Source: Syncephalis fuscata S228
Taxonomy: Eukaryota > Fungi > Zoopagomycota
Direction of reading: 5' to 3'
NCBI GenBank assembly: GCA_025786725.1
Contig: JAHLTZ010000005.1
Location: forward strand, 248,001 to 312,000
DNA length: 64,000 nucleotides
The notes beneath the pieces are model-generated. The model ran no database searches, was not told the origin of the DNA, and saw nothing but the letters and a program-made list of their open reading frames with translations. This document shows, one piece after another, positions 1,826 through 56,670 of the stretch. Position numbers and translations under genes: made by a program. Position 1 is the stretch's first letter. Every line of letters starts with the position of its first letter.

Positions 1826-2640
1826 ATTGTTGACATTATTCTATTAGTATACTTGTTTTTATGCAATTGATTTTCATTCTTTGTTTTATTCTACTATTTA
1901 AACAACTCTTCCATTTGTATTTCAATTTGTTCATAGTCTTTTTATGTACAGCGTTATTCAATTTATGATTGTACATATTACATTATTTATTAATTAAATA
2001 AAGATAATATTTTTATATTAAACAATTTATTAGGCATTTAATGTGATTTGTGTCAAATGATTATTTTTAATAACATTCGCGCAACTGAACTACACATTCG
2101 TTCTATTGAACATGGGACAAGTAGTGAGTTTTATTTAATCGTCACATTATCACACTTATTGCTTTTTGGGAGACAAATGACTAAAATCCAATAATAGCCA
2201 ATCTATTGAACATGATAATGGGTGGTGAGCGACATCAAGCATCAAATACTCATCATTGTAGATTCATTATCCAGTATGCATATATCCTCTATTCACCTAT
2301 GTCATTCCCATTCTATCTCATGATACTATATATTATTCTACGATATACTAAATACATTCTATTGTTTATGTGTTTCAATATACTCCACTCATTGTACCCA
2401 TTGCGCTATACACACTATACCTTCGACATCGTTTTATATACTTTCTTACCGTACATTTGTCATTCTATATACTATTCTATATTCATTAAGTCATTTTGTA
2501 TCAAAAACTACATTTATTTTTGTTCTAGCTTTATTATTTATAAATGTCAACTAATTCCGCTCATTGCTCATGCATATATGCTCAATAACTTGAACATTGC
2601 TAATCTCGTTCAATATTGTATAATCATTATAATGTTTATC
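1826..2640 (+). repeat. Dispersed AT-rich repeat family A, copy 1
   Basis: Near-identical inverted copy at ~32440-33205 (shared spurious ORF MNMIMGGERH...); diverged relatives at ~25060-25560, 31700-31870 and 32100-32285. Confidence 0.85.
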
Positions 2641-2779
2641 ATTCCTTATATATTGGCTATACGTTGTCTATAACCGTTGTCGGTATAGTTTTAACTCTTT
2701 TATTAATAAAAATTGACATATCATACTTATTTTGTTCATCAAGTTATTTTGTTATAACAAATATGAATATGAACAGTTG

Positions 2780-3361
2780 TTTTTATTAAAATATTGTTAA
2801 TAAATTGATTTAAATAAAGAATATAACATACTATTTGATTTCTTTGAAACACTTGAAGCCGATTATCGTTATTGTTGTTGTTGGCCATATGTAAAAAGAT
2901 TGATCGAATATTAATAGAAGCCATATGATTGCAATTCCATATCGTTCTGTATTTGTTGTTGTTGCATCTATGTACAGCATGGATTATTGCATCTAAATGA
3001 TCTATTCTATTTTCTAATATTCTACTATTGCATTTTGGGCATATTTGTGATGTAAGACCAAGATTAATATAATTATTATAAATGTCGCTTATTAAACAGC
3101 CACTTCCTCTATAGCCAATCTGACTAAATAAATGGCATTTGAACAATTAATATCATAATGACAATGTATATATATTAAGCAATAATAAAAATAACTAATT
3201 GATTACATTATTATACTGACAATTACACATGAATGAACTAATGTTGGATCCAATATTATACATGTTATAGTAATGAATAGTGTTTAATTGTAATTAAAAG
3301 TATTAAGAAAAAGGGAGTGAAATAAGTAAATAGAAATGTTAAAGTCAAAGTAAAATAGCTC
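2780..3361 (-). mobile_element. Repeat family B, copy 1: non-autonomous element with a decayed Fanzor/TnpB-like C-terminus, 3'-truncated
   Basis: Translates LTSQICPKC...HAVHRC...TIWNCNHMASINIRSIF, matching the Fanzor TSQxCxxC zinc-ribbon and WNRDxxAxxNI RuvC-III pattern; near-identical copies at 15378-16023 and 34913-35529. Confidence 0.7.
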
Positions 3362-3906
3362 CGTTTATTTGATCAATATAGTGCATTTGCCATTCAAATC
3401 AGTAAGTAATACAAATTGCTAATACATATTTGATTTAACATACTAAAATGCTATCTATTAATTAAAATATTCTATTTTAATGCTTATTAACATACATTAT
3501 ATCATAGTATTCTATGTTCTATTTGTTTTTAATAGCTTTATTGATTATAAATTGCTCTTTTTTCATAAACATCATTTTGTCAATCAGTACACATATTGTA
3601 TACTTTATTCTATTAGCACTTTGAAATAGCTACTTTATACTAGATTGTCCGCATACCATGTTAATGATAGATAAATCTGCTTAATTGTTATTAAAACTTC
3701 ATTTTTATATTGTTTGTCATATATCCATATGTTTTTTAAATGCATTGCTTTTGTTTGTACATGTCTATAATTACGATGTAATTGTGTGTCAATCAATTCT
3801 ATGGTTGCTACACAATTTCTAATGTAGTTTATAAAAACTCCTATAGTTATTCCATTTTAAACTTATTTTATTTTAGCACGTTCTACAGTTAAGCGTATTG
3901 TTAATT

Positions 3907-9544: not shown

Positions 9545-12500
9545 ATGGTCACCAAATCAATTAAGCCACCCTGTAAGTCAGCGTGTATCAACTATAGCAT
9601 GATTTGTACAAATAGTTATTGATACCATTTAACTATTCGTATAGCCACTATCTCAGGCAAAACATGTTTGATTTGCTATGATTCCATTAAAATCTGTAAT
9701 TTTAATGGAACAATTATAAAGAAAAAAAATGAAGCACCGACTGGCACAGTATTAGACTGCGGCCATGGATATTGTTTTGGCTGCTTTGTCAAACACTTAC
9801 AATCACTTATTACAGCTGCTGTCTGTAAATTCCCAGTTAAATGTCCCTATCCTGATTGTGTACAGGTGATATCCGACGATATGGCAAAGCAGCTTCTTTC
9901 GCCCGCGGAATATCGTCGCTGGCACCAAAGAAAAGTCGAGAGCGATCCAAAGTGCATTGTAAGTGCATCGACCTTAATTCTGGCAACTAATAGTTAATTT
10001 GCCGTAAAGATGTTTTGCCCAAACAAACGATGCAGCCACACTATATGGACTGTAATTGACGGCAATCCGCAGCCTTCTCCAGCTAAATGTCCAGAGTGCA
10101 AGCTGATACTATGTCTGCGCTGCAAAACAGAGCATCACAAAGGTATGTCAATCTGCCACACTAAACAACTGTTTTAATAGTACAGTTGATAGGTATGAGC
10201 TGCGGTGAATATGCCAATCTTCCAAAAGCAGAAAAATATAAAGAAGACTGGGACACGTTAAAGCTTGCCGGCCCAAATCGATGGCGACACTGTCCGATAT
10301 GTAACGCCTTAGTTGAGCGGAATACTGGCTGTAAGAAGATGACCTGCACTTGTACTGCTCAATTGTAAGAAGCTTGAAATACATTAAATTTAACTATTTC
10401 TAACATCAACCAATAGCTGCTTTGGTTGTGGCACAGTATGGACTAAGAAAAAAAACTCCAAAAGCTGCTGTGCACTTCAAAATCATGATTTAGACCGTGG
10501 CATAATGGTTCAAGCATCCAATACTTCTAATGCTCAGACCAGCAGTGATAAACGTAAATTCAGTATTGCTGTTCTCGCGAGCGGTAGATTTCTTCAAGCA
10601 GTAAGAACACTTGGTTCCGCACCATGGCACTTCAAAAACGATGTGGCTATTGTGATCAAAAATTTAAATCTTTGGATGCGTTGCATGCCCATTTGGAAGA
10701 AACTCGGAAACATACCACGTATATTTGTTGCGAGCAACTATTTTCAAGTTCAAGCACGTACAATGCACACGTAAAGACACATGGAAAAGCCAAACCACCC
10801 ACATCAACTGTAAATACTGCTCCTGCTTCAATTTCTGTAAATAGCACAGATCCAAAGGTGCCACTTCCTGCTACAAAGTCTACAGCAAGCACCAGCAAAG
10901 AAGTAAAAACTTTAGCGTCATCTAAAAGTCCATCAGCTAAGAAACCAGCATTGGTCAATCGTAAAGAGGTAGCCAGCGTTGATATTAAAGTGCTGTTGAA
11001 TGATAAGGAGAGGAATTTTAAAGATTCAGCTTGGCTGGCACTATCCGAAAAAGGGAAGTGCTGCCCATATTGCCAACGCAAATTCAAGAATCCAGCAGCT
11101 CTGCATGAACATTTGATAAAATTTACCAAACATGAAGTATATATTTGCTGTAAATCGCTTTTTCCTAATGCTTCAGCATTGAAATTACATAAGGAATCTC
11201 ATACATTAGCATCCAATCTACCGTCAAATAAACCTTCAACTCAACAAAAGACGTCATCAAACTCAGTTTGCACTCCTACATCATCATCTATTTCAAAATC
11301 AGATATTGCTAAACCGAATTTGCCTAAACCAACATTGTCTACTTCAAACAATACTTCTACTAAGCAGCAAGTACCCACCGATTCCAAGCCAGCTGCAATT
11401 GAAACTCATGTCTGTTGTGGGCGCATTTTTAGCACATCAGCAGCAAAAAATGAACATATACAAAACTCGCGTCGTCATCAAGCAACATTAAAACAGGACT
11501 TACACATTCGCTCTGAACCGCACAAAGCATCGTCATCTGCTTCAGCCAATACTTCTGTTAAGCAGCAAGTAGCTATTAGTTTTCATCCACATGTATCTGA
11601 AGTTTATTATTGTTGTGGACGCACTTTTAGCACATTGGAAGCAAAACGTGAACATATAAAAACATCATGTTATTATCAAACACCATTAGAAAAAAAACCA
11701 TGCCCTTATGAGCCAGGAACTATTGAATATGAATATTATAAACCAACATCATTTACTTCAAACGATACTTCTACTAAGCAGCAAGTACCCACCGATTCCA
11801 AGCCAGCTGCAATTGAAACTCATGTCTGTTGTGGACGCATTTTTAGCACATCAGCAGCAAAAAATGAACATATACAAAACTCGCGTCGTCATCAATCAAC
11901 ATTAAAACAGGACTTACACATTCGCTCTGAGCCGCACAAAGCATCGTCATCTGCCTCAGCCAATACTTCTGTTAAGCAGCAAGTAGCTATTAGTTTTCAC
12001 CCACATGTATCTGAAGTTTATTATTGTTGTGGACGCACTTTTAGCACATTGGAAGCAAAACGTGAACATATAAAAACATCATGTTATTATCAAACACCAT
12101 TAGAAAAAAAACCATGCCCTTATGAGCCAGGAACTATTGAATATGAATATTATAAACCAACATCATTTACTTCAAACGATACTTCTACTAAGCAGCAAGT
12201 ACCCACCAATTCCAAGCCAGCTGCAATTGAAACTCATGTCTGTTGTGGGCGCATTTTTAACACATCAGCAGCAAAAAATGAACATATACAAAACTCGCGT
12301 CGTCATCAATCAACATTAAAACAGGACTTACACATTCGCTCTGAGCCGCACAAAGCATCGTCATCTGCTTTAGCGGATACTTCTGCTAAACAGTCAATGT
12401 CTATTAATTTACAGGCATTAGCATTTAAACCCTATTATTGTTGTGGACGTACCTTCAATACATTGGTAGCAAAGCGCGAACATATACTAACTTCATGTTA

Positions 12501-12708
12501 TTATGATACCATAATGATTCAAAAATTACCTGCTTGTGAACAACAAATTTTAAAAGATTTACTAAAGTCTGATGATATAGTAAACTCAATAACATCGCCA
12601 CTGGCATTTTCAGCACCAAAAGCAACTAAATCTGGTTGGTCGGATGGAATGCGGTTTGTTTTTTTTAGTATTTTTTTGGCTTCTATTTTTATTTGGATTA
12701 AAAAATAG
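9545..12708 (+). CDS. RBR (RING1-IBR-RING2) E3 ubiquitin ligase with zinc-finger repeat array and C-terminal TM helix; introns 9573-9644, 9959-10009, 10143-10192, 10365-10416; 1-nt frameshift near 10588
   Basis: RING1 CLICYD..CGHGYCFGC..CPYPDC; IBR CPNKRC..CPEC..CLRC..HH; RING2 CPIC..VERNTGCKKMTCTC..FCFGC; then CxxC/CC-type C2H2-like fingers and hydrophobic tail FVFFSIFLASIFIW. Confidence 0.8.
11341..12505 (+). repeat. Coding tandem repeat, 414 bp (138 aa) period, about 2.8 copies
   Basis: ACTTCAAAC(A/G)ATACTTCTACTAAGCAGCAAGTACCC recurs at 11341, 11755 and 12169 with near-identical units. Confidence 0.95.
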
Positions 12709-13770
12709 CTATTATTGTTATAGTCTTAGTTTAAGGCATTCTTTTTTATCATATATAACACTTTAGTAAAGCTATAGTTAAATTTGTATGATAAATACAA
12801 CACTATTTTATAAGTATGCACAGAGCTGTACTTTATTGATGCAAATAACTGTCTATATAGTATTTGCTGATATCAATGGTTTAAATTAATTTGTTGTATG
12901 ATTGCTGTCGAATGCTTAATAGAATTCAATATTGTGTAATATAACCAATTATAGGCTATTTGGAAATCAGGTGCTTTATAATTATACTATCATCTCCATT
13001 GCACTGATAATATATAATCAGTATATAATATTTTTAACAATCGTAAAATAACGTTTTATTTAATAAATTGTGTAACATGTTGCTACGAACACTAAATATA
13101 ATAATTTGATTACATGATTGAATTATATACATATTACCATATTTGGTAATTGTCATTAATTTGACATATAGTCACGTGACTTAGTCAGGTACAACGCTTG
13201 TGTAGCTTTTACTTAGCACGTGGCTAGTATCCCAATTAACAGAATAAGTAAATAAGTCAGGACCTTTACAGGGGGCCTGCCAGCTTTATTTAATATCTAA
13301 TACAGAACATGGGTACTAATTTACTTTAAGCAACTTAATACCCATATACAACACCGAAAGGAAGAAACGAACAAGTTCTTCCTTCACAAATATCTCTTAA
13401 CTTTAGCTTATTTTAGTATAAAAAAGCACATAATTTTAGCATTTTAAATAAACATTATCAGTTACTTCAGCTCATTTTTCTTAAGTTTTATTACAAATAT
13501 TATTTAGCTTACTATTTTCTAAGCTAATATAATCGCTAATTACTCAAGAAATTTAGTAGCTTATAAACCATCGCAGGTCTAGTAAGCAACAAGGTAACAA
13601 TGTATAAAACAGCTAACTAATTAATACAATAGAATAAAGTGAAGGGCAATAATTTATTATAAAATGGGCAAATTATGTATGTGTATACATAGAGAACGTG
13701 TGCCAACAGATATTTGAGTATATATACCGAGTAATATTCAAATATTCTTATTTCTAGACTCACAACAACG

Positions 13771-14535
13771 TAAAACAAAGCAAATTGCTTGATATTCTGC
13801 ACAAGTATACATACAACATATAGGTAGCCATTGGTAAAGTATACCGCAATTGTATTATAAGCTGATATCATGGTTGCAATAATACACTAACAAATGTACA
13901 AAAATAGCAGTTTTTTACAAATCATGGCTTACATAACTAAAATACAGCAAAATGGTTGCTGGATTCGAGTTCTCCGTGCTTAGTTATACAGACTGGGTTG
14001 ATTTACATAACAATGATTTTTGCAACAAAAGTTAGTCAAAAATGCAATTTACGTAAATATCATTGAGAAGCAATTAAAGTTTGATGGTTTTAAAGATTTA
14101 ATATTAAAAGTGAAAATTGGTATAAAGTAAATTTAAAGCACGCTACAGCATAAAAACAAGCATAATAGCAAATTAGTATACAAAAATATCAATGCACAGT
14201 AGCAATCTATGCTATTGATATACATATAACAGATTTTGGTTAACTAATTTACACGTAAATTGCATTTTGACTAACTTTTGTTGCAAAAATCATTGTTCTG
14301 TAAACCATACCAGTCTGTATAACTAAGCACGGAGAACTCGAATCCAGCAACATTTTTGCTGTATTTTAGTTATGTAAGCCATGATTTGTAAAAAACTGCT
14401 ATTTTTGTACATTTGTTAGTGTATTATTGCAACCATGATATCAGCTTATAATACAATTGCGGTATACTTTACCAATGGCTACCTGTATGTTGTATGTATA
14501 CTTGTGCAGAATATCAAGCAATTTGCTTTATTTTA
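13771..14535. mobile_element. Foldback/MITE-like structure: ~285 bp inverted arms with ~195 bp spacer
   Basis: 13771-~14055 is the reverse complement of ~14253-14535 with few mismatches (e.g. GGATTCGAGTTCTCCGTGCTTAG vs CTAAGCACGGAGAACTCGAATCC). Confidence 0.8.
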
Positions 14536-15314
14536 TGTAAAATCATAATAATTACTATTGGTTTTTAATTTGAACTCACTGAATTACATCACTAAATTAC
14601 ATAAGTTATATTTTTACATTGACACGATGGTTTCCCATTTTATATTTGTAAGCTAGCGCTCTATTTACATTTAAAACGTTACAACTATACTAGCCTATTT
14701 TTCAGCGGTCATAACTATTAGAAGTAAAAATATACTATTTTACAACAGCCATATTGCTACTATCTTGCTACTATGCCCATACTGCTATGAGAATGTGTCT
14801 AATAAACACAGCATGTGCCTAAACAGTTTGTTAAGATTACATGTAGATATTCATAATAATAATAAATACATTAATTAGCAGCACTAATTACTAACAATAA
14901 ACAACTATTAAATAGTATAGCAAGTAAATATTTGTTCGTTGTAAACATACGAACAGTTGCATAAAGTGATATGCTGTGTTGATGATGAAATAATACAACC
15001 ATTCAGGCTTTATTATTGGTTATGTTTAATATAAAATGCTAACTTTATTTAATATCAGCAAAATATATTCATTCTAGTTCCATTTATTTTCTTTAATCCT
15101 ATACAAATTGTTCAATCTATTATGGCTAAGCCGTAGTAATTAATGGCCAATAATAAATGTTTATTATCGAATTAATATCGACTAGCCAACACATTGTATT
15201 CTAAATGTTAAGGTGAGCGCTAACAAGCATCATACAATAACATTATAGGATGTCGTCTGGATAATCCGTTTCTTAATCATCTACATTGTAACTTTCAATT
15301 AAAGTTGTAACAAT
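14506..15314 (+). repeat. Dispersed repeat family C, copy 1 (non-coding)
   Basis: Near-identical inverted copy at ~30143-30949. Confidence 0.9.
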
Positions 15315-15377
15315 GTGTAGTAGCTATTTATCATTGTTGTCTATTTTTATTAATTCTAGCTCTAGCTGAATTGTACT

Positions 15378-16023
15378 TTGACTCCCAAAGCAAATTTTAT
15401 TCCAATTGAAGTCATGTTGTTATGCACAACACAGCTATATTACTTTTATTAGAATATTGTTAATAAATTGATTTAAATAAAAAATATAACATACTATTTG
15501 ATTTCTTTGAAACACTTGAAGCCGATTATCGTTATTGTTGTTGTTGGCCATATGTAAAAAGATTGATTGAATATTAATAGAAGCCATATGATTGCAATTC
15601 CATATCGTTCTGTATTTGTTGTTGTTGCATCTATGTACAGCATGGATTATTGCATCTAAATGATCTATTCTATTTTCTAATATTCTACTGTTGCATTTTG
15701 GGCATATTTGTGATGTAAGATCAAGATTAATATAATTATTATAAATGTCGTTTATTAAACAGCCACTTCCTCTATAGCCAATCTGACTAAATAAATGGCA
15801 TTTGAACAATTAATATCATAATGACAATGTATATATATTAAGCAATAATAAAAATAACTAATTGATTACATTATTATACTGACAATTACACATGAATGAA
15901 CTAATGTTGGATGTAATATTATACATGTTATAGTAATGAATAGTGTTTAATTGTAACTAAAAGTATTAAGAAAATGAAGTGAAATGAGTAAATAGAAATG
16001 TTCAAGTCAAAGTAAAATAGCTC
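15378..16023 (-). mobile_element. Repeat family B, copy 2: Fanzor-relic element including the conserved 3' hairpin tail
   Basis: ORF 15435..15809 nearly identical to 2739..3146; downstream tail shared with copy 3 up to ...GAGTCAAA. Confidence 0.72.
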
Positions 16024-16114
16024 TCTAGTTCTAATCAATTTATTTATTGTTGTGGTTGTGATATATAAAATAATAAGTCATAATGAAAGGATACAAAAAA
16101 ATTTAAAGCTTCAA

Positions 16115-19100
16115 TTAATTTCGCAATGCATAGTCATAGCGGCCCACAAGTTTTACTAGCTCTTTCCCTGTAAATACCATGGATCGTGAAGCTTGTTCAT
16201 CTGTTACGGGCAGCAATAATCGTGCCAGATGTGTAGCCAGTGAACGATCCCGCGTTGGTCTACCTGGTCGGTCGGCCTCGCCCACCGGCGCATTGGCCGG
16301 TAGAGTACGATCTCTTTGCTCACGAATAGCTCGAGCTCGTTCTTCAATCATCGTACACCACGCCAATTGTCGGTCTCGTGATTCAACGCTAAATGAAAGT
16401 TTAACGGCTCTTCCTTGTCCCACGGCAACATCTCGCCAATGGCCAAGATCAAGGCGTGGTGCAGTTGCCGCTAATGGCAAATCGTCATCTTCATCGCCAC
16501 TATTCGCTTCCTGATGTGTACGTGATTGTGGCTGAAGTGATTTGCTGCCGTTTAATCCATTAGCTGGTGTTGGCAGTATCGCTTTTGATCCAGCTTGCTT
16601 CTTTAAGTCATAGCCATCTTGATTCGATGTCTGGGGTTGACGAAATATCGCAATTGGTAAATCTTCAAGTGAAAAAAAGGTTGATTCACATCGAATTCGG
16701 AATGCCCAACGCATAAACGACCTTTCAACTGATAGTGTACGCGGCGGAATAGGTGAGTAGCGTGAAGCATTCGGTCCCATCAATTCAAAGGCAATTACAC
16801 AACGGCCTACCGAAACACCTGTCAATGTGATACGTGCTTCACGATCTGCGGTAAATTCAACAATATCACTTGATGACCGTAGGCCATTTTCAGCCACCAC
16901 ACACAATTGCAAGTGTGGATCAGGATACGGCAACTGGATAACAATCTCTGGACTGGGTACCCGTACTGTAACACGTAATGGAAATGTGCCAACTGAAATC
17001 CATAATCGACCACTAGGATCAGTATCCTCTTCTTTGTCTAACGGTGCGGGTGTAGATGTTAAAACATTGGGTGCTAATGACTCAGTGCCATCATCTAATC
17101 GTATTGGACGGATCCATGTTGCTTCAAATGTATGGCGTAATAATAAATCAGGAATAAATAATGAATGCCCGTCATCTTCACGATGATTTGCAAATGTGCA
17201 TTTAAATAGCTGGCAGAAATCATCCAGTCGTGTAGTTGCTGTAGTTGTATCGGTAGTTGATACTGTCGCTATTTTTTGACTAGCCATTAATACAGTGTGT
17301 AGAAGAGCTATAGCAGCTCGACGACCTAGTCTATAATCTGGATTGGCTGTACGCCATCGATCGGCAATCATAACAATACAACGAGTACGGGCCTCTGGAT
17401 CTTCATTTACTGCTTCGGCCGGTCTATGTAGCTCCCATGTTCCATTGGATTCGCCTATATTGTCCGTATTATTAGCATCAAGACGTAAGGTAGAGCCAGA
17501 TGCTGTCGGTAATAACATATGACCGGCAACTAGACGTAGTAAATCAGGTAGCGGAATACCACGAGCTGGCAAACGTTCCATAAAAGCCGCAAATGCCGGT
17601 GTATTTTCTGGCCTAGATATTAATAGACCCACTTTGCGTCTATCCAATCCACGTGTACGCAGTAGAAATCCAGCTACACTAGCAGCATCTCGTCGGAGCA
17701 AATTCTTTTTTATAAGTTGATGTATAGCTCGGTATGGATGTGCAGTAAATTGTTGTACGGCTTTACAAACTTCTGGGTCTAGTAGTTTTGATAGATCAGG
17801 TGGTGACATTGCTTCTTCCCGCATTAATGCCATGCTTACATCGCCTAATGGAATAATGGCTCGACATTGAAAACGGCAATCTAGATTACACGCGTCTAAT
17901 TGCTGGCCTTCAGGAAGAATTGGTTTAACTATTATTAATAAATCAGGGAATAAGAAAAGCATTCTATCTTTAACAGTACGCGATGTAATAACTTGTAAAA
18001 CTGGACCAAAGCGTAATAAACGCCGTTTATGTGTATCGCTCATTTCTTCGCCAGCTGGTCGATGTTGCGGCGATAGCGGACTTTTTAATGGTTCGTGTAA
18101 GCCATCTGGATCTTCAAGATCTATATAATTTGCTGTTGATACGGGCTTTGTCTTTGATACAGATGACGAAACACCTCGTACACTATCCTCGCTACCACGA
18201 CGAACATTATTTATTTTGCCAAATTGTGTATTATTGGTCGGTGCCAATCGTTCAAGTGATCTAGAGACACGTTTACGTGCTATCGCAGCTGGTTTTAAAT
18301 GCTTCCTAGTAGGTGAACGACCACGTGAATCAGCTTGTTTGCCGCTTCGATTCGCTTTTGATCGCATTTCTTGTTGCGTATTCAATGCGGTTCCAACTGA
18401 CAGGCCTAATTGTTGCAATTTTATTAATATTAATATTAAATATACCTATTCTATTTATATACTTACCTTCCTTTTTACTATTGCCATTATTATTAATGCT
18501 AACATTACTTGCATTATTTATAGTATTATTAGCATTATTTTGCAATTTAGATAGTGGCGGTGTAGGAGTCGATGATGCTTTGACCACCTTTTCAGCACTA
18601 TTAGCACGTGCATTAGTAGGCTGACGAGCTAATGGCCGTTGAGAGGTACGTTCATCAGGCGTTTTTGATCGCGACACCATAGGTGTTATATTTTGATGCT
18701 GTACAGTGGATAGATTTGGTGCTGATGGATTTCGGCTATGATTTAGCCCAGTAGTTGGTACACTAAGCATTGGATTTGCTCGAGTGTTGGCTGCCTGGGC
18801 ATATGTTTTTGAACTTTTAGATAGATTACTAAACGATTGGCTGCCATTAACAGAAGTACTGGATGATAAAGCAAATGGTAATCCACGCTGTGATAAATAC
18901 AACTCCTCCTCTGGACTAGCAGAGAAATTGGTTGCAGCAAGTGGCTGTTTTTTAGCTAAAGAATTGCCATCTTGAAGTGGCTGTAGAAATGATGAAAAAG
19001 ATGTACTAGTTAAATCAAGAGGTGGAATATACGCAGGATCTGTGTATGATCGATCAGGTACAGTATTTGATGCTGCCAAGTGACAGATTGGCACTAGTCC

Positions 19101-23300: not shown

Positions 23301-23621
23301 CTCCAACATCAGTTTGACAATTAAATCATTTACGCTATCTCTTCGAACAATCCACTCTTAACAAACATCACGTTACTTTCATCGCGCTTTATTTTTGTTT
23401 GCTTTCGATTTCACGCTTAACGTTAACTATCCACGCCAATCGTAGCAACACCCCGATACGCCTAACAACAACAACAACAACAACACATCTATCCTAGTCA
23501 CCAACACAACAACAGCGTTTATTGCTTCATTCACACAAGCCTGTTTATTTTATTTGCAACTTTCCGTTTGATTTTGTCACTGTCACTTTTGGTGTTATTC
23601 TATCTTTCCACTTTTATCATC

Positions 23622-24842
23622 ATGTATTCCGGATACGCCATCCTTGCTGCCTGCGCCTTAATGGCCGCCGTTGGAGTACACGCCGCTCCCGCCGATCCAG
23701 CTGCTGCCAAGCAATTTGCTGCATTGCCATTTGCACCAAGTAAATTCTCTCCTGAAGGTTTCCCACTCAATGAAAAGGGTGACGAGTTTCATTTGATTCA
23801 AAAAGATGCCAACCAGGCTCCAGTCTGGATGCCAGAGTCGCAAGTATGGGATCTTAAGAAAAAGGATAGTGAATTCATGGATGTTACCTTTCAGCCTAAT
23901 TTGGCTGACAAGGCAGAAGAAACACGTCGTTCCCAGGTTCGCAAAGGCTCCAACCTGGTTGCAGAGCCAGCAGGCACACTAACACACACGAAGGAAGCTA
24001 AACCCATCGTCGACAGTTGTAATACTACCTTAATGAAATCAGCTTTAGGCAAGCTAGTAACATTCAAAAATCGCTACTATCGCTCTCCCACCGGTACAGA
24101 ATCGGCCAACTGGTTGTTCGGCACTGTCCAAGGTTTGGCAAAAAACGCCAAGGACGGCGTTAAGATTAACGTAACCCAATTCAAGCATCGGTTTAACCAA
24201 CCTTCCGTCATTGCACGAATTGAAGGCGAGGCTGGCCAGGTTGAAACCGTCATTGTTGGCGCGCATCAAGACTCAATTAATGGAGACAATCCACTTAACG
24301 GGGTTGCGCCCGGTGCTGATGACGATGGCTCCGGCACTGTGTCGATTCTTGAGGCATTCCGCGCCATAGTTGACTCTGGATTCAAGCCAAAGCGCCCAAT
24401 TGAATTCCATTGGTATGCTGGTGAGGAGGCAGGTCTACTTGGATCACAAGACGTTGCCGCCAGCTATCAAAGAGCCGGTCGTAAGGTAGCCGGCATGTTG
24501 CAAATGGACATGACCGGCACTCCAGCCAATGGTCGTCCCAACGAAATTGGTATGATTTCCGATAACGTCAATTCGGACCTTACGCAAACGGTCGAGAAAC
24601 TTGTCGGTCAGTTTGTACCAGATGTTACAAGCAAGCGATTCCGTTGTGGCTATGGCTGCTCTGACCACGCCTCATGGACCAAGGCTGGCTACAAGAGCGC
24701 ATTTCCATTCGAATCGGCCGGCTTGCATGACAACGACAACATCCACACAACAGAAGACACCATCGAAAAGGTCAGCTTTGATCATGCCGTTCGATTCAGC
24801 AAGATTGCTGTTGGCTTTGCTGTCGAATTATCGCTTCAATAA
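23622..24842 (+). CDS. Secreted M28 leucyl aminopeptidase (LAP1-like), intronless
   Basis: Signal peptide; GAHQDSIN, PGADDDGSG, FHWYAGEEAGLLGS, QMDMTG, CGYGCSDHASW, IHT metal-binding motifs. Confidence 0.95.
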   Translation: MYSGYAILAACALMAAVGVHAAPADPAAAKQFAALPFAPSKFSPEGFPLNEKGDEFHLIQKDANQAPVWMPESQVWDLKKKDSEFMDVTFQPNLADKAEETRRSQVRKGSNLVAEPAGTLTHTKEAKPIVDSCNTTLMKSALGKLVTFKNRYYRSPTGTESANWLFGTVQGLAKNAKDGVKINVTQFKHRFNQPSVIARIEGEAGQVETVIVGAHQDSINGDNPLNGVAPGADDDGSGTVSILEAFRAIVDSGFKPKRPIEFHWYAGEEAGLLGSQDVAASYQRAGRKVAGMLQMDMTGTPANGRPNEIGMISDNVNSDLTQTVEKLVGQFVPDVTSKRFRCGYGCSDHASWTKAGYKSAFPFESAGLHDNDNIHTTEDTIEKVSFDHAVRFSKIAVGFAVELSLQ

Positions 24843-25059: not shown

Positions 25060-25560
25060 TAATTTGGGGTGTCAATTGACTAAACTTGATAATAATTGCG
25101 CAATTGAACTAGACTTTTGTTCTATTGAAGATGAAGCCAGACGGTAAGTTTTATTTATGATCAAAATACTTATCATCGTAGATTCATTATCCGGTACACA
25201 TATATCCTCTATCCATATGTATCATTCCTATTTCATTCCACACTACTATATATCATTCTATGACATACTAGACACATTCTATTGTTTATATGCTCCAATA
25301 TACTTCATTCGCTCCACTCATTACGTTATACACACTGTAACTTTAGCATTATTTTATATACTTTCCCACCGTACATTTGTCATTCTATATACTATTCTAT
25401 AATCGTATAGCCTTCCTGCATCCAAAGCTGGTCTTATTTTTGTTCTAGCTTTATTATTTATAAGTGTCGGCTAATTCCGCTCATTGATCATGCATATATG
25501 CTCAATAACTTTAACATGGCTAATCGTCGTTCAATATTGTATATTCATTCTACTATTTAT
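25060..25560 (+). repeat. Diverged member of repeat family A
   Basis: Shares blocks such as TTGTTCTAGCTTTATTATTTATAA and CTAATTCCGCTCATTG.TCATGCATATATGCTCAATAACT with 2500-2600. Confidence 0.75.
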
Positions 25561-26340
25561 CGTTTTTTATACAACCGTGCACTTTCTATCTAGCTAAGCC
25601 AGCGTTAGTGCCATTATAACAATGCTATTTGAACTCATCTCTACATAGCACAGACTATATGCACCACGCTTATTTGTTTTCCTTTCCTTTCCGTTACTTT
25701 ACCATCACACTCTTTCTTTCTATTTCTTATTTACACTTGCAATCTGTATTCTTTATTCATCTTACAATCATAATCGTAAGTAGACCTCACTATATGCAAG
25801 TCACACTTGAGTATATCTTCCCTTTCTTCGTATCATCATGCTTGCTTTGTTGTTATTGTCCCAATGAACATTATTTCATTGGTTGAATACACATTCTGTA
25901 TGTATGCTAGTCATCTACACTATATGTCTTTCCAATGCTGCCCACACATATCGTTTAATGCACTGCGTTGCTCTACCATTTGCTACAGCTATCGGCTAGT
26001 ATTTATATTCTATAACTATAGATAGATTGCACTACACTACTTTTTATTGTTTTTGTTGTTGTGTAACTACTGACTCCTTGCTATGAATATTTATTGCATT
26101 GTGTTGATAACAATAGTAGCTATAGTAGTAGTAACTATACTAGTAGATTACATGCATATACTGTGATCATTATCATATACCTATTTTTTATACGTATAGT
26201 ATCCATAGTGATTGTTATTTTTGTGCGCAGTGTCTTATTTTACATTTGATGCAATATCGGGATGACCATATAGCAATATCTGCAATATATTTACGTAAAT
26301 CGAAAATTTTGAATCCGACTTAAAAAACTGCCTTCACTCC

Positions 26341-30142: not shown

Positions 30143-30949
30143 ATTGTTACATTTTTAATTGAAAGTTACAATGTAGATGATTAAAAACGGATTATCCAGA
30201 CGTCACCCTATAATGTTATTGTATGATGCTTGTTAGCGCTCACCTTAACATTTAGAATACAATGTGTTGGCTAGTCGATATTAATTTGATAATAAACATT
30301 TATTATTGGCCATTAATTACTACGGCTTAGCCATAATAGATTGAACAATTTGTATAGAATTAAAAAAATAAATGGAACTAGAATGAATATATTTGCTGAT
30401 ATTAAATAAAGTTAGCATTTTATATTAAACGTAGCCAATAATAAAGCCTGAATGGTTGTATTATTTATCATCAACACAGCATATCACTTTATGCAACTGT
30501 TCGTATGTTTACAACGAACAAATACTTACCGGCTATACTATTTAATAGTTGTTTATTGTTAGTAATTAGTGCTGCTAATTAATGTATTTATTATTATTAT
30601 GAATATCTACATGTAATCTTAACAAACTGTTTAGGCACATGCTGTGTTTATTAGACACATTCTCATAGCAGTATGGGCATAGTAGCAAGATAGTAGCAAT
30701 ATGGCTGTTGTAAAATAGTATATTTTTACTTCTAATAGTTATGACCGCTGAAAAATAGGCTAGTATAGTTGTAACGTTTTGAATGTAAATAGAGCGCTAG
30801 TTTACAAATATAAAATGGGAAACTATCGTGTCAATGTTTAAAAATATAACTTATGTAATTTAGTGGTGTAATTCAGTGAGTCCAAATTAAAAACCAATAG
30901 TAATTATTATGATTTTACATAAAACAAAGCAAATTGCTTGATATTCTGC
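30143..30949 (-). repeat. Dispersed repeat family C, copy 2
   Basis: Reverse complement of 14506-15314. Confidence 0.9.
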
Positions 30950-32439
30950 TAATAGTTATCTATATGTCATATGCATACTTGTACGAAATATCATACAGTT
31001 TGGTTCATTATACGTAAAGTTATACGTATTAGTATCAATGCTCTATTATTTAAATTATTACTATTAATTATGCTATTGCCTTTTGCCATTTAATTACACT
31101 AAAGTCACTTTTTAACACTACTAAATACTGTTATAGCATTAATGCAACATGCTTATGCTTAGATTTGTAAAATAACGCACCATCAGCATTTTAAAATGTT
31201 ATAAATAATAAAAAACATTTTTGCTGTAACCATAGCTATTAAAATAAAATGCTACATTTCTACGATGGTTATATTATTATAAATAACAAATAATGTCGTT
31301 TTTCAATATTCGCTGATATTGTACGTCAATAGTAAGGTTTTATGTATTATAAACTTAATACTGTTAATGATACATTTTCCACTTTATATTTATTTTATTC
31401 CATATCATTTATTTTGTAGTAGTAACATACTATTCATAATTGTTGTCCGTTTGTCCCTAGTTCAATTGCCAATACACTTTGACTAACTTTGTTTATTGAG
31501 CCATACGGATGAGTAAAACAAATAAAACAAATCTACGTAAAATTATTGTCTTATTAAATTATGTATTAGATTGGTTATTTATAACCAATAATTGCCGGAC
31601 TAGTTAACGCCAAATAGGCCATATAAAATAGGGAAAAGTTAAATAATAAATGAATGCAAATACCAATATTGCAATGTTGCGAAAATGTAACGATATGATA
31701 ATATTTACAATATATATATTTATACAGAATAATCACAATAGTGAATCTATAATAATAATAAATATTTTGATAACTGATATAACTTACCATCCATCTCCAT
31801 ATTCAATAAAATGAATGTATAATTTAATTGCGCAAATATTACCAGGTTTAGTTATTCGATTCCCCTCAAATAACACTAAACTATTAACACACTAACAGCG
31901 GTAGTCAAGCTTAACGCTAATACTAGTGCTGTTATAATAATGCGTAGGTGCAGCAATCAATGCTTATTGTTTTGTTTTATAGCGCTAAAGCTATACCTTA
32001 CCATAATTAATATTATATATTAACAATTGCTTATTGTTTAGTGTGATTTGAATGCCAAATAACTACATTTAATAAATATTTATACATTTGACTAGATATT
32101 TGCTCTATTGAACATAATGATGGGTGATGAGTAACATCAAAGTTTAAAATACCCATTATCATAGATTTATTATCCAGTACGCATATATTTTCTATTCATC
32201 TATATCGTTAGTAATATATGCCTATACTATTATATATTACTTTATGCTATACTGAATACATTATATTGTTATAGGTTTCAATTACATATAGTTTGCTAAA
32301 TGAATGAAATGAATAAGTTAAAATTTATTAATAACAAAGCTAAAGCAAAAAGGACAACTGCAATAGCTAGCACATAGTTACTAGACAATAAAATACTATA
32401 CAACATAGTGAATACACGGTGCGAAGTGACGATTAGTTA

Positions 32440-33205
32440 TGTTCAAGTTATTGAGCATATATACATGATCAATGGTCAACATTAGTCGACATTTATTAAC
32501 AATAAAGCTAGAACAAAAATAAATGTAGTTTTGATACAAAATGACTTAGTGAATATAGAATAGTATATAAAATGGCAAATGTACGGTAAGAAAGTATATA
32601 AAACGATGTCGAAGGTATAGTGTGTATAGCGCAATGGGTACAATGAGTGGAGTATATTGAAACACATAAACAATAGAATGTATTTAGTATATCGTAGAAT
32701 AATATATAGTATCATGAGATAGAATAGGAATGACATAGGTGAATAGAGGATATATGCATACTGGATAATGAATCTACAATGATGAGTATTTGATGCTTGA
32801 TGTCGCTCACCACCCATTATCATGTTCAATAGATTGGCTATTATTGATTTTAGTCATTTGACTCCCAAAAAGCAATAAGTGTGATAATGTGACGATTAAA
32901 TAAAACTCACCACTTGTCCCATGTTCAATAGAAGAATGTGTAGTTCAGTTGCGCGAATGTTATTAAAAATAATCATTTGACACAAATCACATTAAATGCC
33001 TAATAAATTGTTTAATATAAAAATATTATCTTTATTTAATTAATAAATAATGTAATATATACAATCATAAATTGAATAACGCTGTACATAAAAAGACTAT
33101 GAACAAATTGAAATACAAATGGAAGAGTTGTTTAAATAGTAGAATAAAACAAAGAATGAAAATCAATTGCATAAAAACAAGTATACTAATAGAATAATGT
33201 CAACA
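32440..33205 (-). repeat. Dispersed repeat family A, copy 2
   Basis: Reverse complement of ~1826-2600. Confidence 0.88.
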
Positions 33206-33415: not shown

Positions 33416-34643
33416 TTAGTTGGATTTAGTTGATAGTTCAACGGCAAATCCTACAGAAACTTTAGCATAACGAAGTGCATGATTAAAATCAATATCCTTT
33501 ACTGTGTCACGAGTTGTGTGAATGTGACCGTTAGCCTCCAAATCATCGGCTAATTATTATTGTTATTATACATTATTATTAGCATTAAATTATTACATTT
33601 AGTTAATTACTTACTTTCAAAATGGAATGCTGATCGGAAGCCATACTTGTTCCATGATGCATGGTCGGAGCAAGCATAGCCGCATCTCATCTCGCTCCAT
33701 TTAACGCCTGAATAAGTTTCAATAAGCTGTTTAAGGAATCCAGTTAATTCACCGTCGACAAAATCGGTTACTACACCAATAACTTCAGGTTCGGGACGGT
33801 AGCCGGTCATATCATTCTGTAGCGCTGCTACTACTTTACGACCTTCTCGAGTGTAGGCAGCTGCCACGTCTTGCGATCCAAGTAAACCACCTTCTTCAGC
33901 AGAATACCAATGGAATTCAACTGACCGTTCTGGTTGGAATTTACCGGCAACTAATGCACGGAATGATTCTAAAATAGTTACAGTGCCAGAACCATCGTCG
34001 TCAGCACCGGGAGATCTACCAAATGATGGCATCCATTGATTGACCGAGTCTTGATGTGCACTAACAATAACAGTCTCTTCTGGATATTTACTGCCTTCAA
34101 ATCGAGCAATAATGAGCTTTGTGGCCAACGATGTTCAAACACTCGCACAGTAACCTTGGCCTTGTCATCGTCATCATCATGGCCTGTAGATTTAATGACC
34201 TTCTTAATCTGCTTGAAGAGGTATTCTTGCGATTCTTTACCCGATTTGCTTTTATAATAGCGTGTATAGAATGAAGTAAATTTGTCAAGTGTTTCACGCA
34301 TCAAGCTTGTGTTCATGGTCTTCAAGTACTGCTGAACCTTACTATGGTGTTTTGGCGCAGCAGGAAGTGAGGTACGGAATGGTGGTGCAAAGGACATGCC
34401 ATCTTGGTAATTTTCAGTTATATCCATAAAACGAATGCGATGACGCCTCAGCAAGTCCACTTGTCGTTCTGACATCCATTCTGGCGGTGAAGTTTCTGAT
34501 GTTTGGATAAGACGATGGGAACTGGCGTCAGATGATGAGGCACGTAAGGTTAGCTGGTCAAAACCAGTCACCGAAGTGGTCAAAGTAGTGGCAGCAAGGC
34601 ATAGTGCTGCTACTAATGCCGTAGTTGAAGTAACAAAGTGCAT
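33416..34643 (-). CDS. Second secreted M28 leucyl aminopeptidase; intron 33550-33614; 1-nt frameshift near 34112
   Basis: Signal peptide MHFVTSTTALVAALCL; SAHQDSVN, PGADDDGSG, FHWYSAEEGGLLGS, QNDMTG, CGYACSDHASW; last exon HIHTTRD..GFAVELS. Confidence 0.93.
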
Positions 34644-34912
34644 TATAGACACTAATACTCTTATAATATTCAATTGAACAAAATGTTGTTATATATAAAC
34701 AACAGTGACAAAGAATACGTTTAAATACGTACAAGATGAATAGGTAAATAGAATGAGTAGATGATAAACAGGTAGCAAAAGATAGTAATAGTAGTAGAAA
34801 GGGGTAGATTGAGCTGGAGAATATAACAAGTCTCAAGTAAAGACGAAATGATGAGTAATAAATACCAATACTAGTCACGTGGATATATACGTGTGAATGG
34901 CTAAATTGTATT

Positions 34913-35529
34913 TTAACATTTCTATTTACTTATTTCACTCCCTTTTTCTTAATACTTTTATTACAATTAAACACTATTCATTACTATAATATGTATAATA
35001 TTGCATCCAACATTAATTAATTCATGTGTAATTGTCAGTATAATAATGTAATCAATCAGTTATTTTTATTATTGCTTAATATATATACATTGTCATTATG
35101 ATATTAACTGTTCAAATGCCATTTATTTAGTCAGATTGGCTATAGAGGAAGTGGCTGTTTAATAAACGACATTTATAATAATTATATTAATCTTGATTTA
35201 CATCACAAATATGCCCAAAATGCAATAGTAGAATATTAAAAAATAGAAGATACATTTAGATGTAATCCATGCTGTACATAGATGCAACAACAACAAATAC
35301 AGAACGATATGGAATTGCAATCATATGGCTTCTATTAATATTCGATCAATCTTTTTACATATGGCAAACAACAACAACAATAATCGGCTTCAAGTGTTTA
35401 AAGAAATCAAATAGTATGTTATATTCTTTATTTAAATAATTTATTAACAATATTTTAATAAAAGTAATATAGCTGTGTTGTGCATAACAACATGACTTCA
35501 ATTGGAATAAATTTGCTTTGGAAGTCAAA
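34913..35529 (+). mobile_element. Repeat family B, copy 3: Fanzor-relic element with 3' hairpin tail, inverted relative to copies 1 and 2
   Basis: Reverse complement of 15378-16000 with small indels; contains ACATCACAAATATGCCCAAAATGC (TSQICPKC). Confidence 0.72.
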
Positions 35530-35650
35530 ATGTGGAATTCAAAGTATAATAACTCCCGTATAAGTAAATACAATAAGTGTAATACATTTATTGGTACTTG
35601 GATAATGTTACTACTACTATTACTACTATTACTACTACTATATTACTATA

Positions 35651-41506: not shown

Positions 41507-43036
41507 ATGGTATATCCTACTCTTTCGGCCGGTTTTAACGGTCTAATTGCCTGTCTATTCCTGGCCAGTGTTGTGTCGGCCGATATTGTTAGGTAGTACA
41601 AATTGTGTTAGTTAATTAAAGGTGATTGGTGCCAATAATGTTGTATAATAGAATATCTTTACAGCGTACCACGCTTGACCCCTCGCATAATGCCACTCAA
41701 CTGAATCCAGGCCGGCCAGGCCGTATGATTCGGCAATCGGTGGCGAGAGAGCAACTTGAAGCCTATATGAAAGATATTGCGGTAAATAGTAATTCACTAA
41801 TTACTATTAATATTGATCATCATCATAATAAACATTTGTAGTATTTTGGTACGGTGCAAGTAGGCAATCCACCGCGTAGTTTCCGAGTTGATTTCGATAC
41901 AGGTAGCGCAAACACATGGATATCATCGACACTTTGTAACTCCATTGCTTGTATGAACCATCGCCGCTTTGATCCCAACGAGTCCAATAGCTACCAAAAG
42001 GATGGTCGACGCTTCTTGGTTCAGTACGGCGACGGCTCTTCGGTTAATGGCCAGATCGGCCATGACGATATGAATATTGGCGGTGTTACACTACGCAACC
42101 AACCATTTGGTTTGGCGCAATTTGAAAGTGACGATATGGACGATAGCACCATTGATGGCATCATGGGACTGGCTTTTCCGGCTTTAAGTGCCGTCCCTGG
42201 TGTACCAACCGTACTCGATACCATGGTGAGCCAGAAGCTACTCGATGCGCCCGTCTTTTCGTTCCATTTATCGCGTGGTGGCGATGACGGCCAAAGCACT
42301 GGCGAAATCATTTTTGGCGGTATTGATTCATCCCGTTTCCATAAACCAATGCGGTTCGCCTCCGTAACTCGGCCACTTTACTGGCAATTCCACGTAGATA
42401 ATGTGCATGTTGGCGAGAATGCATTGCGACTAAGCGCAGATGCAGTCGTCGATACAGGTACTTCGCTTGTTGTAGTGCCAAATAACATTGCTCGTCAAAT
42501 ACATAGCCAGATACCTGGATCAATTTTCTCACGTACCAGTGGCTGGCTTATGCCGTGCGCGCTATCTGGCACGGGACCAGATCTAGCCTTTGAAATGGCT
42601 GGTGGTCGATCTATTGTACCAAGTATCGACTATGTCGGTCCAGCACTAACACTTACGCCAGACATGTGCTTTAGCAATATTATGAATAGTGATATTGAGG
42701 TAAGTTAGCGTAATGGTGAATAATCGCGATGCTAATATATATATATTTTAATAGCATTGGATATTGGGTGATACATTTTTGAAAAACAATTATGTAATGT
42801 TTGATTATGGCAATCGCCGAATTGGTTTTGCCCACCGTACAGATACTGTGCGTGTTCAACGTGCAAAAACATCTGTTACCGGCAAAAACCGAGTGCGCGG
42901 ACAACAGCAAAAAGCAGCACTCAATGGTGAGTCTGAGCCAGCCGTACAAAAGCCTAGCTTGGATACCAATAATGGCGCTGAATTAGAGACGCAGGTAGCA
43001 GAAGATAGCGCAGCAGTCGAACAAGAAAGCTCGTAG
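41507..43036 (+). CDS. Secreted pepsin-like (A1) aspartic protease with acidic C-terminal extension; 3 introns
   Basis: Signal peptide MVYPTLSAGFNGLIACLFLASVVSA; catalytic FDTGS and VDTGT; YGDGS flap; WILGDTFLKNNYVMFDYGNRRIGFA. Confidence 0.95.
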
Positions 43037-55705: not shown

Positions 55706-56670
55706 TTAATTGTACTTATCACACGCTGCTTTAATGGTTTTAATAGCAGTATTCATACGCTTTTTTTCGTCTTCATTCAATTTAAGATCAATGACATAAC
55801 TAATACCGTGAATACCAAGAATGGCCGGTCGACTAATATAACACTGGTGCTCTTCACTCCAACAGCTAACGGGACGAACATCATGCCGATCATTCAATAT
55901 TGATCCACATAAAGATGCGACACATGCACCGATGCCAAAGCTAGTAGCGCCTTTACGTTCAATAATTTCGTAAGCTTTGCGCATCACTTTTTTTTCTATG
56001 TCAGCCAAATCAACATCTTTCATTGCTGGATGCTCAAGAAGAGGTATACAGCCAATGGACGCACTCGACCAATTAACAAATTGCAAGTCACCATGCTCAC
56101 CCATCACGTAACAATGAATTGCATTTTCATTGACATTTAGCTTGCTGGACAGTATGCCACGAAGCGCATGCTATCAAGAAAAGTGCCCGATCCAAGTACT
56201 TGGCTACGCGGTAGTCCAGAGAGCTTCTGCGCGATAGAGGCCAGTACATCAACCGGATTGCTTACTAGCATCATAATAGCATCTTTTCGAATTGGTTGCA
56301 TTTCTTCAATGATGCTCTTGAGAATCTTATAGTTACGTTCAACTAACTATTAAATACGCTTTAGTATAATTTGATCTATACCACTGCTATGGCAAACTTA
56401 CTGCCGATCGAGGCTCGTCTGGCTGTTGCTTGGCACCGGCAGTAATGATGATAATATCACACTGTCCAGCCTCTTTATTAGTGGCTGCGGAGACAGGTAC
56501 CGGCGTAAGAAAGTTGGCATCAGATAGATCCAGCACCTGGCCTTCGAGTACATGGCAGCGACATCTACCATGATCACTTCTGCCGGCAATCTGCGGAGCA
56601 TGCAAGCATAGGCACAGCACGCACCAACTGCACCTGCACCAACGATAGCAATTTTTGGCTTAGATGGCAT
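55706..56670 (-). CDS. LDH: L-lactate dehydrogenase; one intron; 1-nt deletions near 56553 and 56163
   Basis: [10 protein letters not shown] Rossmann motif; EGQVLDLSD; IITAGAKQ; VSNPVDVL; GSGTFLDS; MGEHGD; [13 protein letters not shown]. Confidence 0.92.

What the first reader, a model, noticed from the sequence alone, without database searches (positions are those of the whole stretch)
15378..16023. Multi-copy mini-element carrying a decayed Fanzor (eukaryotic TnpB) C-terminus
Seen: three near-identical ~0.6 kb copies within 33 kb (2780-3361 minus, 15378-16023 minus, 34913-35529 plus), encoding L(G/D)LTSQICPKC-x17-AVHRC-x6-TIWNCNHMASINIRSIF...RLQVFQR. Known: Fanzor/TnpB proteins end with E-xx-TS-xx-CxxC (RuvC-II and zinc ribbon) followed by WNRDxxA(S/A)xNI (RuvC-III). 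Inference: an internally deleted non-autonomous transposon that amplified after losing nuclease activity, since WNRD is WNCN in all copies. This implies an autonomous Fanzor-bearing parent element exists or existed in this genome.
Basis: partly seen in the sequence, partly recalled or inferred. Interest (0 to 1): 0.78.

Follow-up and report, generated by a model that had tools for sequence, protein, structure and literature searches.

The report
Dead Fanzor remnant in fungal mini-transposon
Three near-identical 0.6-kb repeats in the genome of a fungus that parasitises other fungi each carry only the broken tail end of a gene for Fanzor1, an RNA-guided DNA cutter, and are likely a gutted jumping element copied by another element's enzyme, a known and fairly ordinary kind of transposon relic.

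Summary
Three copies are 96.7-98.0% alike over 551 columns. Two keep an open frame; the third is frameshifted. The 72-codon piece from LTSQ to FQR is a Fanzor1 C-terminus: 18 of 19 phmmer hits are its relatives, and full-length ones carry the D-E-D triad. It is dead mainly by truncation: RuvC-I and the RuvC-II Glu are missing, RuvC-III reads CN, and the first Met lies after the zinc finger. Imperfect inverted ends and a 9-of-10 flanking repeat at one copy suggest a MuDR-type non-autonomous element, as described for Mucorales Fanzors (PMC3627910) and akin to partial and ghost Spu-1 loci (PMC10432273). The host is a Syncephalis mycoparasite, yet every named close relative is from Mucoromycota. 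Host-to-parasite transfer is possible, but the tree test is inconclusive. Related contigs with the RuvC-II Glu occur in a public run; an intact parent and a transposase are not shown. The scan found Fanzor ghost elements before on other DNA, not this sequence. New member of a known kind; interest 0.3.

The parts
15364..16023 (-). Copy B, 660 bp, the most complete copy of the mini-element
15504..15719 (-). Copy B Fanzor1 remnant (LTSQ to FQR, 72 codons): zinc ribbon with the fourth Cys read as Tyr, RuvC-III read as WNCN
   Evidence: profile match starts exactly at LTSQ
15720..16023 (-). Left part of the element, 304 bp, AT-rich, no detectable Fanzor coding similarity
   Evidence: scores within shuffled controls
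15996..16023 (-). Left terminal inverted repeat of B, begins GAG; matches the right end of C in 22 of 28 bases
   Evidence: 0 of 2000 shuffles reach the score
15364..15383 (-). Right end of B, shorter imperfect inverted match to the left end
   Evidence: p 0.01; a piece ending at 15387 is also joined to diverged X5 contigs (table 5)
16024..16033 (-). Left copy of a candidate 9-10 bp target-site duplication of B
   Evidence: 9 of 10 bases match; p 0.014 for random site pairs, 0.003 with the left flank fixed
15355..15364 (-). Right copy of the candidate target-site duplication of B
15364..15450 (-). Right-end module of B and C, candidate omegaRNA scaffold (by position and predicted fold only)
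   Evidence: z -3.25 for 15360-15450 (1 of 200 shuffles); the matching stretch of C gives z -1.10; three other stretches z -1.4 to -1.7
2781..3361 (-). Copy A, intact left end, near-identity stops at 2781
2841..3056 (-). Copy A Fanzor1 remnant inside the 135-codon frame 2739-3146
3334..3362 (-). Left terminal inverted repeat of A; matches the right end of C in 24 of 29 bases
   Evidence: 0 of 2000 shuffles reach the score
34912..35556 (+). Copy C, left end shortened, 11 deleted bases
35197..35408 (+). Copy C Fanzor1 remnant, split over two frames
35528..35556 (+). Right terminal inverted repeat of C

Best explanation
The three repeats carry a truncated, catalytically dead Fanzor1 tail and are likely copies of a non-autonomous, probably MuDR-type DNA transposon that was cut down from a longer Fanzor1 element and is moved in trans by a transposase encoded elsewhere. 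Shown: the three copies, the Fanzor1 origin of the 72-codon piece, the missing catalytic residues, the inverted similarity between ends. Inferred: a deletion joined the element's left end to the last 72 codons and the right end; the kept ends let a MuDR-type transposase recognise it; the protein remnant is a passenger that sits next to the right end and does nothing; later C-to-T and G-to-A decay turned Arg to Cys, Asp to Asn and the fourth zinc Cys to Tyr.
For: Homology: 19 hits at E <= 0.001, best 4e-13; 17 of 19 pass the PF07282 cut-off or nearly all of it (16 pass, 2 more match below it, 1 is unrelated); hhalign to the relatives' alignment 99.6%, E 4e-24; that alignment's best solved structures are SpuFz1 (2e-8) and GtFz1 (1e-5); members of the same subfamily are labelled FZ1 in Saito's table. 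Dead state: match starts at LTSQ in all copies and no other Fanzor piece lies in the window; first Met at residue 75 of 135. Ends: left ends of A and B match the right end of C inverted, 0 of 2000 shuffles; B has a 9-of-10 flanking repeat; Mucorales MuDR-type Fanzor families have 31-42 bp imperfect TIRs and 9 bp TSDs, two with an end starting GAG. High copy: 413, 348, 82 and 585 contigs of four runs were laid on 14000-17000, with depth piling on 15414-16019. Decay: in X5 the fourth Cys is read in 15 contigs (4144 of 4203 depth) and the Arg in 5 contigs (1682 of 5638).
Against: No copy has both matching ends: B's right end is a shorter variant, C's left end is cut, A's right side is diverged. 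Only 1 of 3 copies has a candidate TSD (C scored p 0.92; A could not be tested) and the boundaries were chosen by eye. Of six end-to-end comparisons two were not significant (p 0.12, 0.54) and two were modest (0.04, 0.01). In three DNA runs depth falls off near 15414-15440, inside B, so most copies may end before B's right end. No transposase and no full parent were seen. Among the three window copies there is no C-to-T bias (8 of 21 changes C>T or G>A, 7 of 21 the reverse).
Confidence: 0.7

Rival explanations
1. Ghost guide-RNA donor: the element is kept or useful because its right end still makes an omegaRNA whose guide comes from each new flank, loaded in trans onto an intact Fanzor1 elsewhere.
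For: The right-end module lies where omegaRNAs lie in Spu-1, between the stop and the right repeat (PMC10432273 passages). B's last 91 nt fold better than 199 of 200 shuffles. One of the two internal differences between B and C there keeps a predicted pair (U-G against U-A). A piece of B's end is shared with diverged X5 contigs.
Against: C's matching stretch does not fold unusually (z -1.10) and the strong fold of B partly reflects its own inverted end; 1 of 5 folds stands out. Two copies give no covariation. A's module is diverged, and most copies in three DNA runs seem to lack it. No intact Fanzor was shown in this organism.
Confidence: 0.12
2. Not a mobile unit of its own: the copies are pieces of an old, fragmented Fanzor family spread by segmental duplication, gene conversion or carriage inside other repeats.
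For: The three copies have different ends; A and B each lie within 60 bases of another repeat family, and those families also recur in the window with ragged ends. A switches from 98% to weak similarity at 2781.
Against: Flanks of the three copies are unrelated; A and B start at the same base; the inverted match between ends and the candidate TSD at B fit transposition; depth rises and falls sharply at the element in four runs.
Confidence: 0.13
3. A short nuclease-dead Fanzor-derived protein that is made and used, in the manner of the bacterial TnpB-derived repressors.
For: A and B keep frames of 135 and 124 codons; two long X5 contigs (2730 and 1925 nt) run through the same junction.
Against: No Met before the zinc ribbon, no RNA- or DNA-binding lobes, fourth Cys lost, C frameshifted; A and B differ by 2 amino-acid-changing and 1 silent base around the remnant.
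Confidence: 0.03

Closest known systems
MuDR-type Fanzor1 elements of Mucorales: ROr-4, PBl-3, MCi-4, and the derivative MuDr-N1_ROr (Bao and Jurka 2013, PMC3627910; main text parts 1-4 of 7 and supplementary files S1 and S12 read)
   Same: Fanzor1 sequence in an element with short imperfect TIRs, a 9 bp-class TSD and no transposase of its own; two of those families have an end starting GAG.
   Different: Those are 4.5-5.2 kb with 1165-1245 aa Fanzors; this is 0.66 kb with a 72-codon dead remnant, its TIR sequence is different by eye, and the host is in Zoopagomycota. The HMAS motif of this subfamily was not found in that paper's supplements (line breaks could hide it).
Partial and ghost Spu-1 loci of Spizellomyces punctatus Fanzor1 (Saito et al. 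2023, PMC10432273; passages and rows of supplementary table 1 seen)
   Same: Short multi-copy TIR elements of about 0.6 kb derived from a Fanzor1 element; 42 loci with full or partial genes and 134 ghosts are reported there.
   Different: Spu-1 ghosts lack the ORF altogether, Spu-1 has TA duplications, and ghost omegaRNAs were tested. Here a coding remnant is kept, the TSD candidate is 9-10 bp, and no RNA is shown.
Mucoromycota Fanzor1 subfamily with DEYLTSQICP...WNRDHMAS (e.g. P0040 Mucor circinelloides 912 aa, P0043 Parasitella, P0044 Helicostylum, P0039 Umbelopsis; KAG2228467.1 and OAD67303.1 labelled FZ1 in PMC10432273)
   Same: Up to 59% identity over the core of the remnant; same C-terminal signature.
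   Different: Most keep RuvC-I DPG, RuvC-II E and RuvC-III RD (P0040 has all three); the window's copies keep none.

Membership tests
Fanzor1 (origin of the remnant) | C-terminal TS-xx-C4 zinc finger-RD region homologous to TnpB/Fanzor | tested here: met
   direct Pfam match is below cut-off
Fanzor1 (origin of the remnant) | Relatives fall with Fanzor1, not Fanzor2 or bacterial TnpB | tested here: met
   Best solved structures SpuFz1 and GtFz1, TnpB only at E 0.007; subfamily members labelled FZ1; all named relatives are fungal
Active Fanzor1 nuclease | RuvC-I Asp (DPG), RuvC-II Glu, RuvC-III Asp | tested here: not met
   First two absent, third read as Asn in all three copies
Active Fanzor1 nuclease | Full-length ORF with a start codon and four zinc-ligand Cys | tested here: not met
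   72 codons, first Met at 75 of 135, fourth Cys is Tyr
MuDR/Mutator non-autonomous element | Terminal inverted repeats | tested here: met
   28-29 bp imperfect match between left ends of A and B and right end of C, 0 of 2000 shuffles; within a single copy only the weaker match in B, p 0.01
MuDR/Mutator non-autonomous element | 9-11 bp target-site duplication | tested here: inconclusive
   B 9 of 10, p 0.003-0.014; C none; A untestable
MuDR/Mutator non-autonomous element | A MuDR transposase element with matching ends in the genome | not testable with these tools
   No genome held; none among the 30 window frames scanned with Pfam
Ghost omegaRNA locus | Conserved structured RNA at the right end, homologous to that of an intact Fanzor locus | tested here: inconclusive
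   (B z -3.25, C z -1.10); no parent DNA to compare; no Rfam match at threshold
Ghost omegaRNA locus | Expression of a discrete small RNA | not testable with these tools
   Only contigs were available
Mariner-type Fanzor element | TA target-site duplication at both ends | tested here: not met
   At the ends as defined, B is flanked by GA and AG, and C's right end by CG

The most novel reading that the evidence does not exclude
A Fanzor1 transposon jumped from Mucorales hosts into their Zoopagomycota mycoparasite Syncephalis, lost its nuclease, and spread as a high-copy mini-element that may still supply guide RNAs: a host-to-parasite transfer of an RNA-guided nuclease element across fungal phyla. 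All named relatives are Mucoromycota, the Zoopagomycota Fanzor fragment listed by Saito et al. (Coemansia) has a different C-terminal signature by eye, and X5 contigs with the catalytic Glu lie at 80% DNA identity or more to the remnant. The tree does not show nesting.
Probability: 0.25. Interest if true: 0.55.

Novelty: new member of a known kind. Interest (0 to 1): 0.3.

Why it matters
As it stands it is a marker: it extends Fanzor1 to a Zoopagales mycoparasite, for which my searches found no report (Fanzor + Syncephalis, 0 papers; no Syncephalis row in the searched supplements of two surveys), and it points to a large Fanzor1 subfamily of Mucoromycota with 827-944 aa members, at least one with all three catalytic motifs, and no close solved structure. 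If the transfer from host to parasite were shown, it would give a concrete route for the spread of Fanzors among eukaryotes, which Saito et al. proposed in general terms. The element itself most likely does nothing.

Tried and rejected
No whole genome is held, so copy number, a parent and a transposase could not be searched. The search for homologous proteins with the 135-codon frame against longer proteins found nothing among 126 candidates; this is a miss of the word index, since full-length relatives were found by other routes. The one metagenome scan gave 3 loci, none close; L001 is a bacterial TnpB and L002-L003 were not examined. Two viral scans found nothing. Single-sequence PDB searches found nothing; the alignment did. 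Rfam: 1 match at E 0.28, below threshold. No RNA holder is on record for the stretch; X5 is only guessed to be RNA. The idea that the 304 upstream bases are decayed Fanzor coding sequence was tested two ways, with and without allowing for deamination, and not supported (18 and 8 of 40 shuffles; 49-96 of 100 shuffles; positive control 0 of 100). A Helitron reading of B's end (CTAG after a hairpin) was considered and dropped because C ends differently and the ends match as inverted repeats. The chance figure is circular, as the pattern came from these copies, and is not used. Horizontal transfer test: 28 rows, 77 columns; P0013, P0017, P0019 and several near-duplicate cluster members were left out; the window rows sit in an 18-row group at 88/78 (not starred), sister to the 16 HMAS rows (71/92), and placing them with the unnamed long-branch row P0010 is not rejected (p-AU 0.098). 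No Zoopagomycota or chytrid Fanzor was available as a row. The within-group identity means used a loose filter that let in two non-HMAS rows and are not relied on.

Full report
Observation. The window is an intron-rich, AT-rich eukaryotic sequence. Self-comparison shows the three copies at the stated places; over a 551-column core they agree at 539 of 550, 527 of 540 and 521 of 539 positions, with unrelated flanks. A and B hold the quoted peptide in one frame; C has 11 deleted bases and is split over two frames.

What the peptide is. Pfam PF07282 matches weakly (E 0.006, below cut-off). A phmmer search of 93 residues against 1.84 billion proteins gave 19 hits, best E 4e-13; 18 match PF07282, 16 above its cut-off, and one is unrelated. 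Searching with the C-terminal part of one hit gave 7 proteins of 385-944 aa; P0040, for one, has DPG, DEY and WNRD. A profile of 13 such relatives matches the remnant at 99.6% and finds SpuFz1 and GtFz1 as best solved structures. Two proteins of this subfamily are labelled FZ1 in the supplementary table of Saito et al.. The origin from Fanzor1 is settled.

How dead it is. The match begins at LTSQ and covers 72 codons; a profile search of all six frames found no other Fanzor piece in the window. RuvC-I and the RuvC-II Glu are absent, RuvC-III reads CN, the fourth zinc Cys is Tyr and the first Met is residue 75 of 135. The 304 bases upstream score like shuffles against the relatives. All three copies share this state, so they were copied after it arose.

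Ends. The left ends of A and B match the right end of C as inverted repeats, 24 of 29 and 22 of 28 bases, reached by 0 of 2000 shuffles; B's own right end matches more weakly (p 0.01), and two of six comparisons were not significant. B is flanked by a 10-base direct repeat with one mismatch (p 0.014 for random site pairs, 0.003 with the left flank fixed); C has none and A's right end is unclear. Bao and Jurka list Mucorales Fanzor1 families with 31-42 bp TIRs, 9 bp TSDs and no transposase, assigned to MuDR (PMC3627910). I therefore favour a MuDR-type non-autonomous element, on one TSD and imperfect ends. A third, inward copy of the end motif lies at 15432-15448 and 35459-35475 (3 mismatches in 17), close to where depth falls off in three DNA runs, so the commonest form may be shorter than B.

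Host and public runs. An LDH exon of the window is 100% identical to a Syncephalis fuscata protein, so the host is a Zoopagomycota fungus; that Syncephalis parasitises Mucorales is from my own knowledge. Four runs of organism A were laid on 14000-17000: 413, 348, 82 and 585 contigs, with depth piling on the element; this shows many copies but is no copy number. X5 holds the neighbouring Sec7-like gene almost exactly (3 other letters over 16051-17000), X8 is more distant. In X5, 8 contigs leave the window's sequence just before LTSQ, and their loose-end consensus reads ...VTIDE into Y-LTSQ, the missing RuvC-II Glu; 5 contigs read Arg in RuvC-III and 15 read the fourth Cys. Against an intact parent: the RuvC-III Asp was not among the differences at 20% share or more, other changes look like decay, and RuvC-I could not be seen. 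Two long contigs run through the Glu-less junction, so that form is also common. X5 is only guessed to be RNA and could include the host fungus, so these contigs cannot be assigned.

Origin. Every named Fanzor relative is from Mucoromycota (Thamnidium, Rhizopus, Rhizomucor, Benjaminiella, Backusella, Blakeslea, Parasitella, Mucor, Helicostylum, Umbelopsis), with up to 59% identity over the core; many hits are unnamed. The Coemansia Fz1 fragment in Saito's table has a different C-terminus by eye. This invites a host-to-parasite transfer, but the 77-column tree puts the window rows beside, not inside, the closest group and does not reject an outside position (p-AU 0.098). Repeat masking and thin sampling of Zoopagomycota could give the same pattern.

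Guide RNA. The right-end module sits where Spu-1 omegaRNAs sit. It folds well in B (z -3.25) but not in C (z -1.10). This stays a possibility.

Literature seen. PMC3627910: main text parts 1-4 of 7, supplements S1 and S12, term search of 14 files. PMC10432273: passages and table rows; one scanned file was not searched and cells over 400 characters are cut, so C-terminal motifs of long proteins may be hidden. PMC10530073: passages and a term search of 2 supplements. bioRxiv 2023.08.09.552727: passages only, supplements not seen. Others: search listings only. Fanzor with Syncephalis gave 0 papers and Fanzor with Zoopagomycota 1, not read. Earlier notes of this scan describe Fanzor ghost elements in other genomes (12 findings, 8 shown) and none like this sequence.

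Verdict. A real multi-copy relic of a Fanzor1 transposon, most likely a MuDR-type non-autonomous element moved in trans; a new member of a known kind.

Noticed in passing
window 14000-17000, run X8: Differences in X8 are strongly one-way: C>T 153 and G>A 67 against A>G 16 and T>C 4, mostly on repeats. This resembles repeat-induced point mutation or methylation-driven decay, which I do not recall being described in Zoopagomycota; one four-term paper search found nothing. The element's CpG ratio is 0.38-0.56 against 0.96 for the window.
   Followed up: partly
window 13768-14054 and 14253-14538: A 287 bp inverted repeat pair, 96.5% alike, around a 198 bp spacer; foldback or MITE-like, no clear target duplication.
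   Followed up: partly
window 14506-15314 and 30143-30949: A second non-coding repeat family, 97% alike over 811 bp, beginning 50 bases from copy B's right end and sharing 33 bases with the inverted repeat.
   Followed up: partly
window 1828-2721, 32313-33205, 25164-25571: A third repeat family (92.5% and about 80% alike); the copy next to A is flanked by an 8-base direct repeat, significance not tested.
   Followed up: partly
window 55706-56170 (-): The LDH exon's 64 hits are three Syncephalis, one Basidiobolus and two unnamed proteins at 56-100%, then about 40% matches whose only named members are Bacilli; no Mucorales or Dikarya names appear, so a bacterial origin of this LDH is possible.
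   Followed up: no
window 10588-12708 (+): A 706-codon C2H2 zinc-finger frame with about three tandem 414 bp repeats.
   Followed up: no
window 16023-16115: Copy B begins 92 bases after the stop of the Sec7-like gene on the same strand; a 4337 nt X5 contig follows that gene and stops at 16051, just short of the element.
   Followed up: no
window 23466-24842 (+), 33607-34688 (-), 41842-42708 (+): Two M28 peptidase genes, 72% alike over 253 bp, and an aspartyl protease; the second M28 gene is split over two frames.
   Followed up: no
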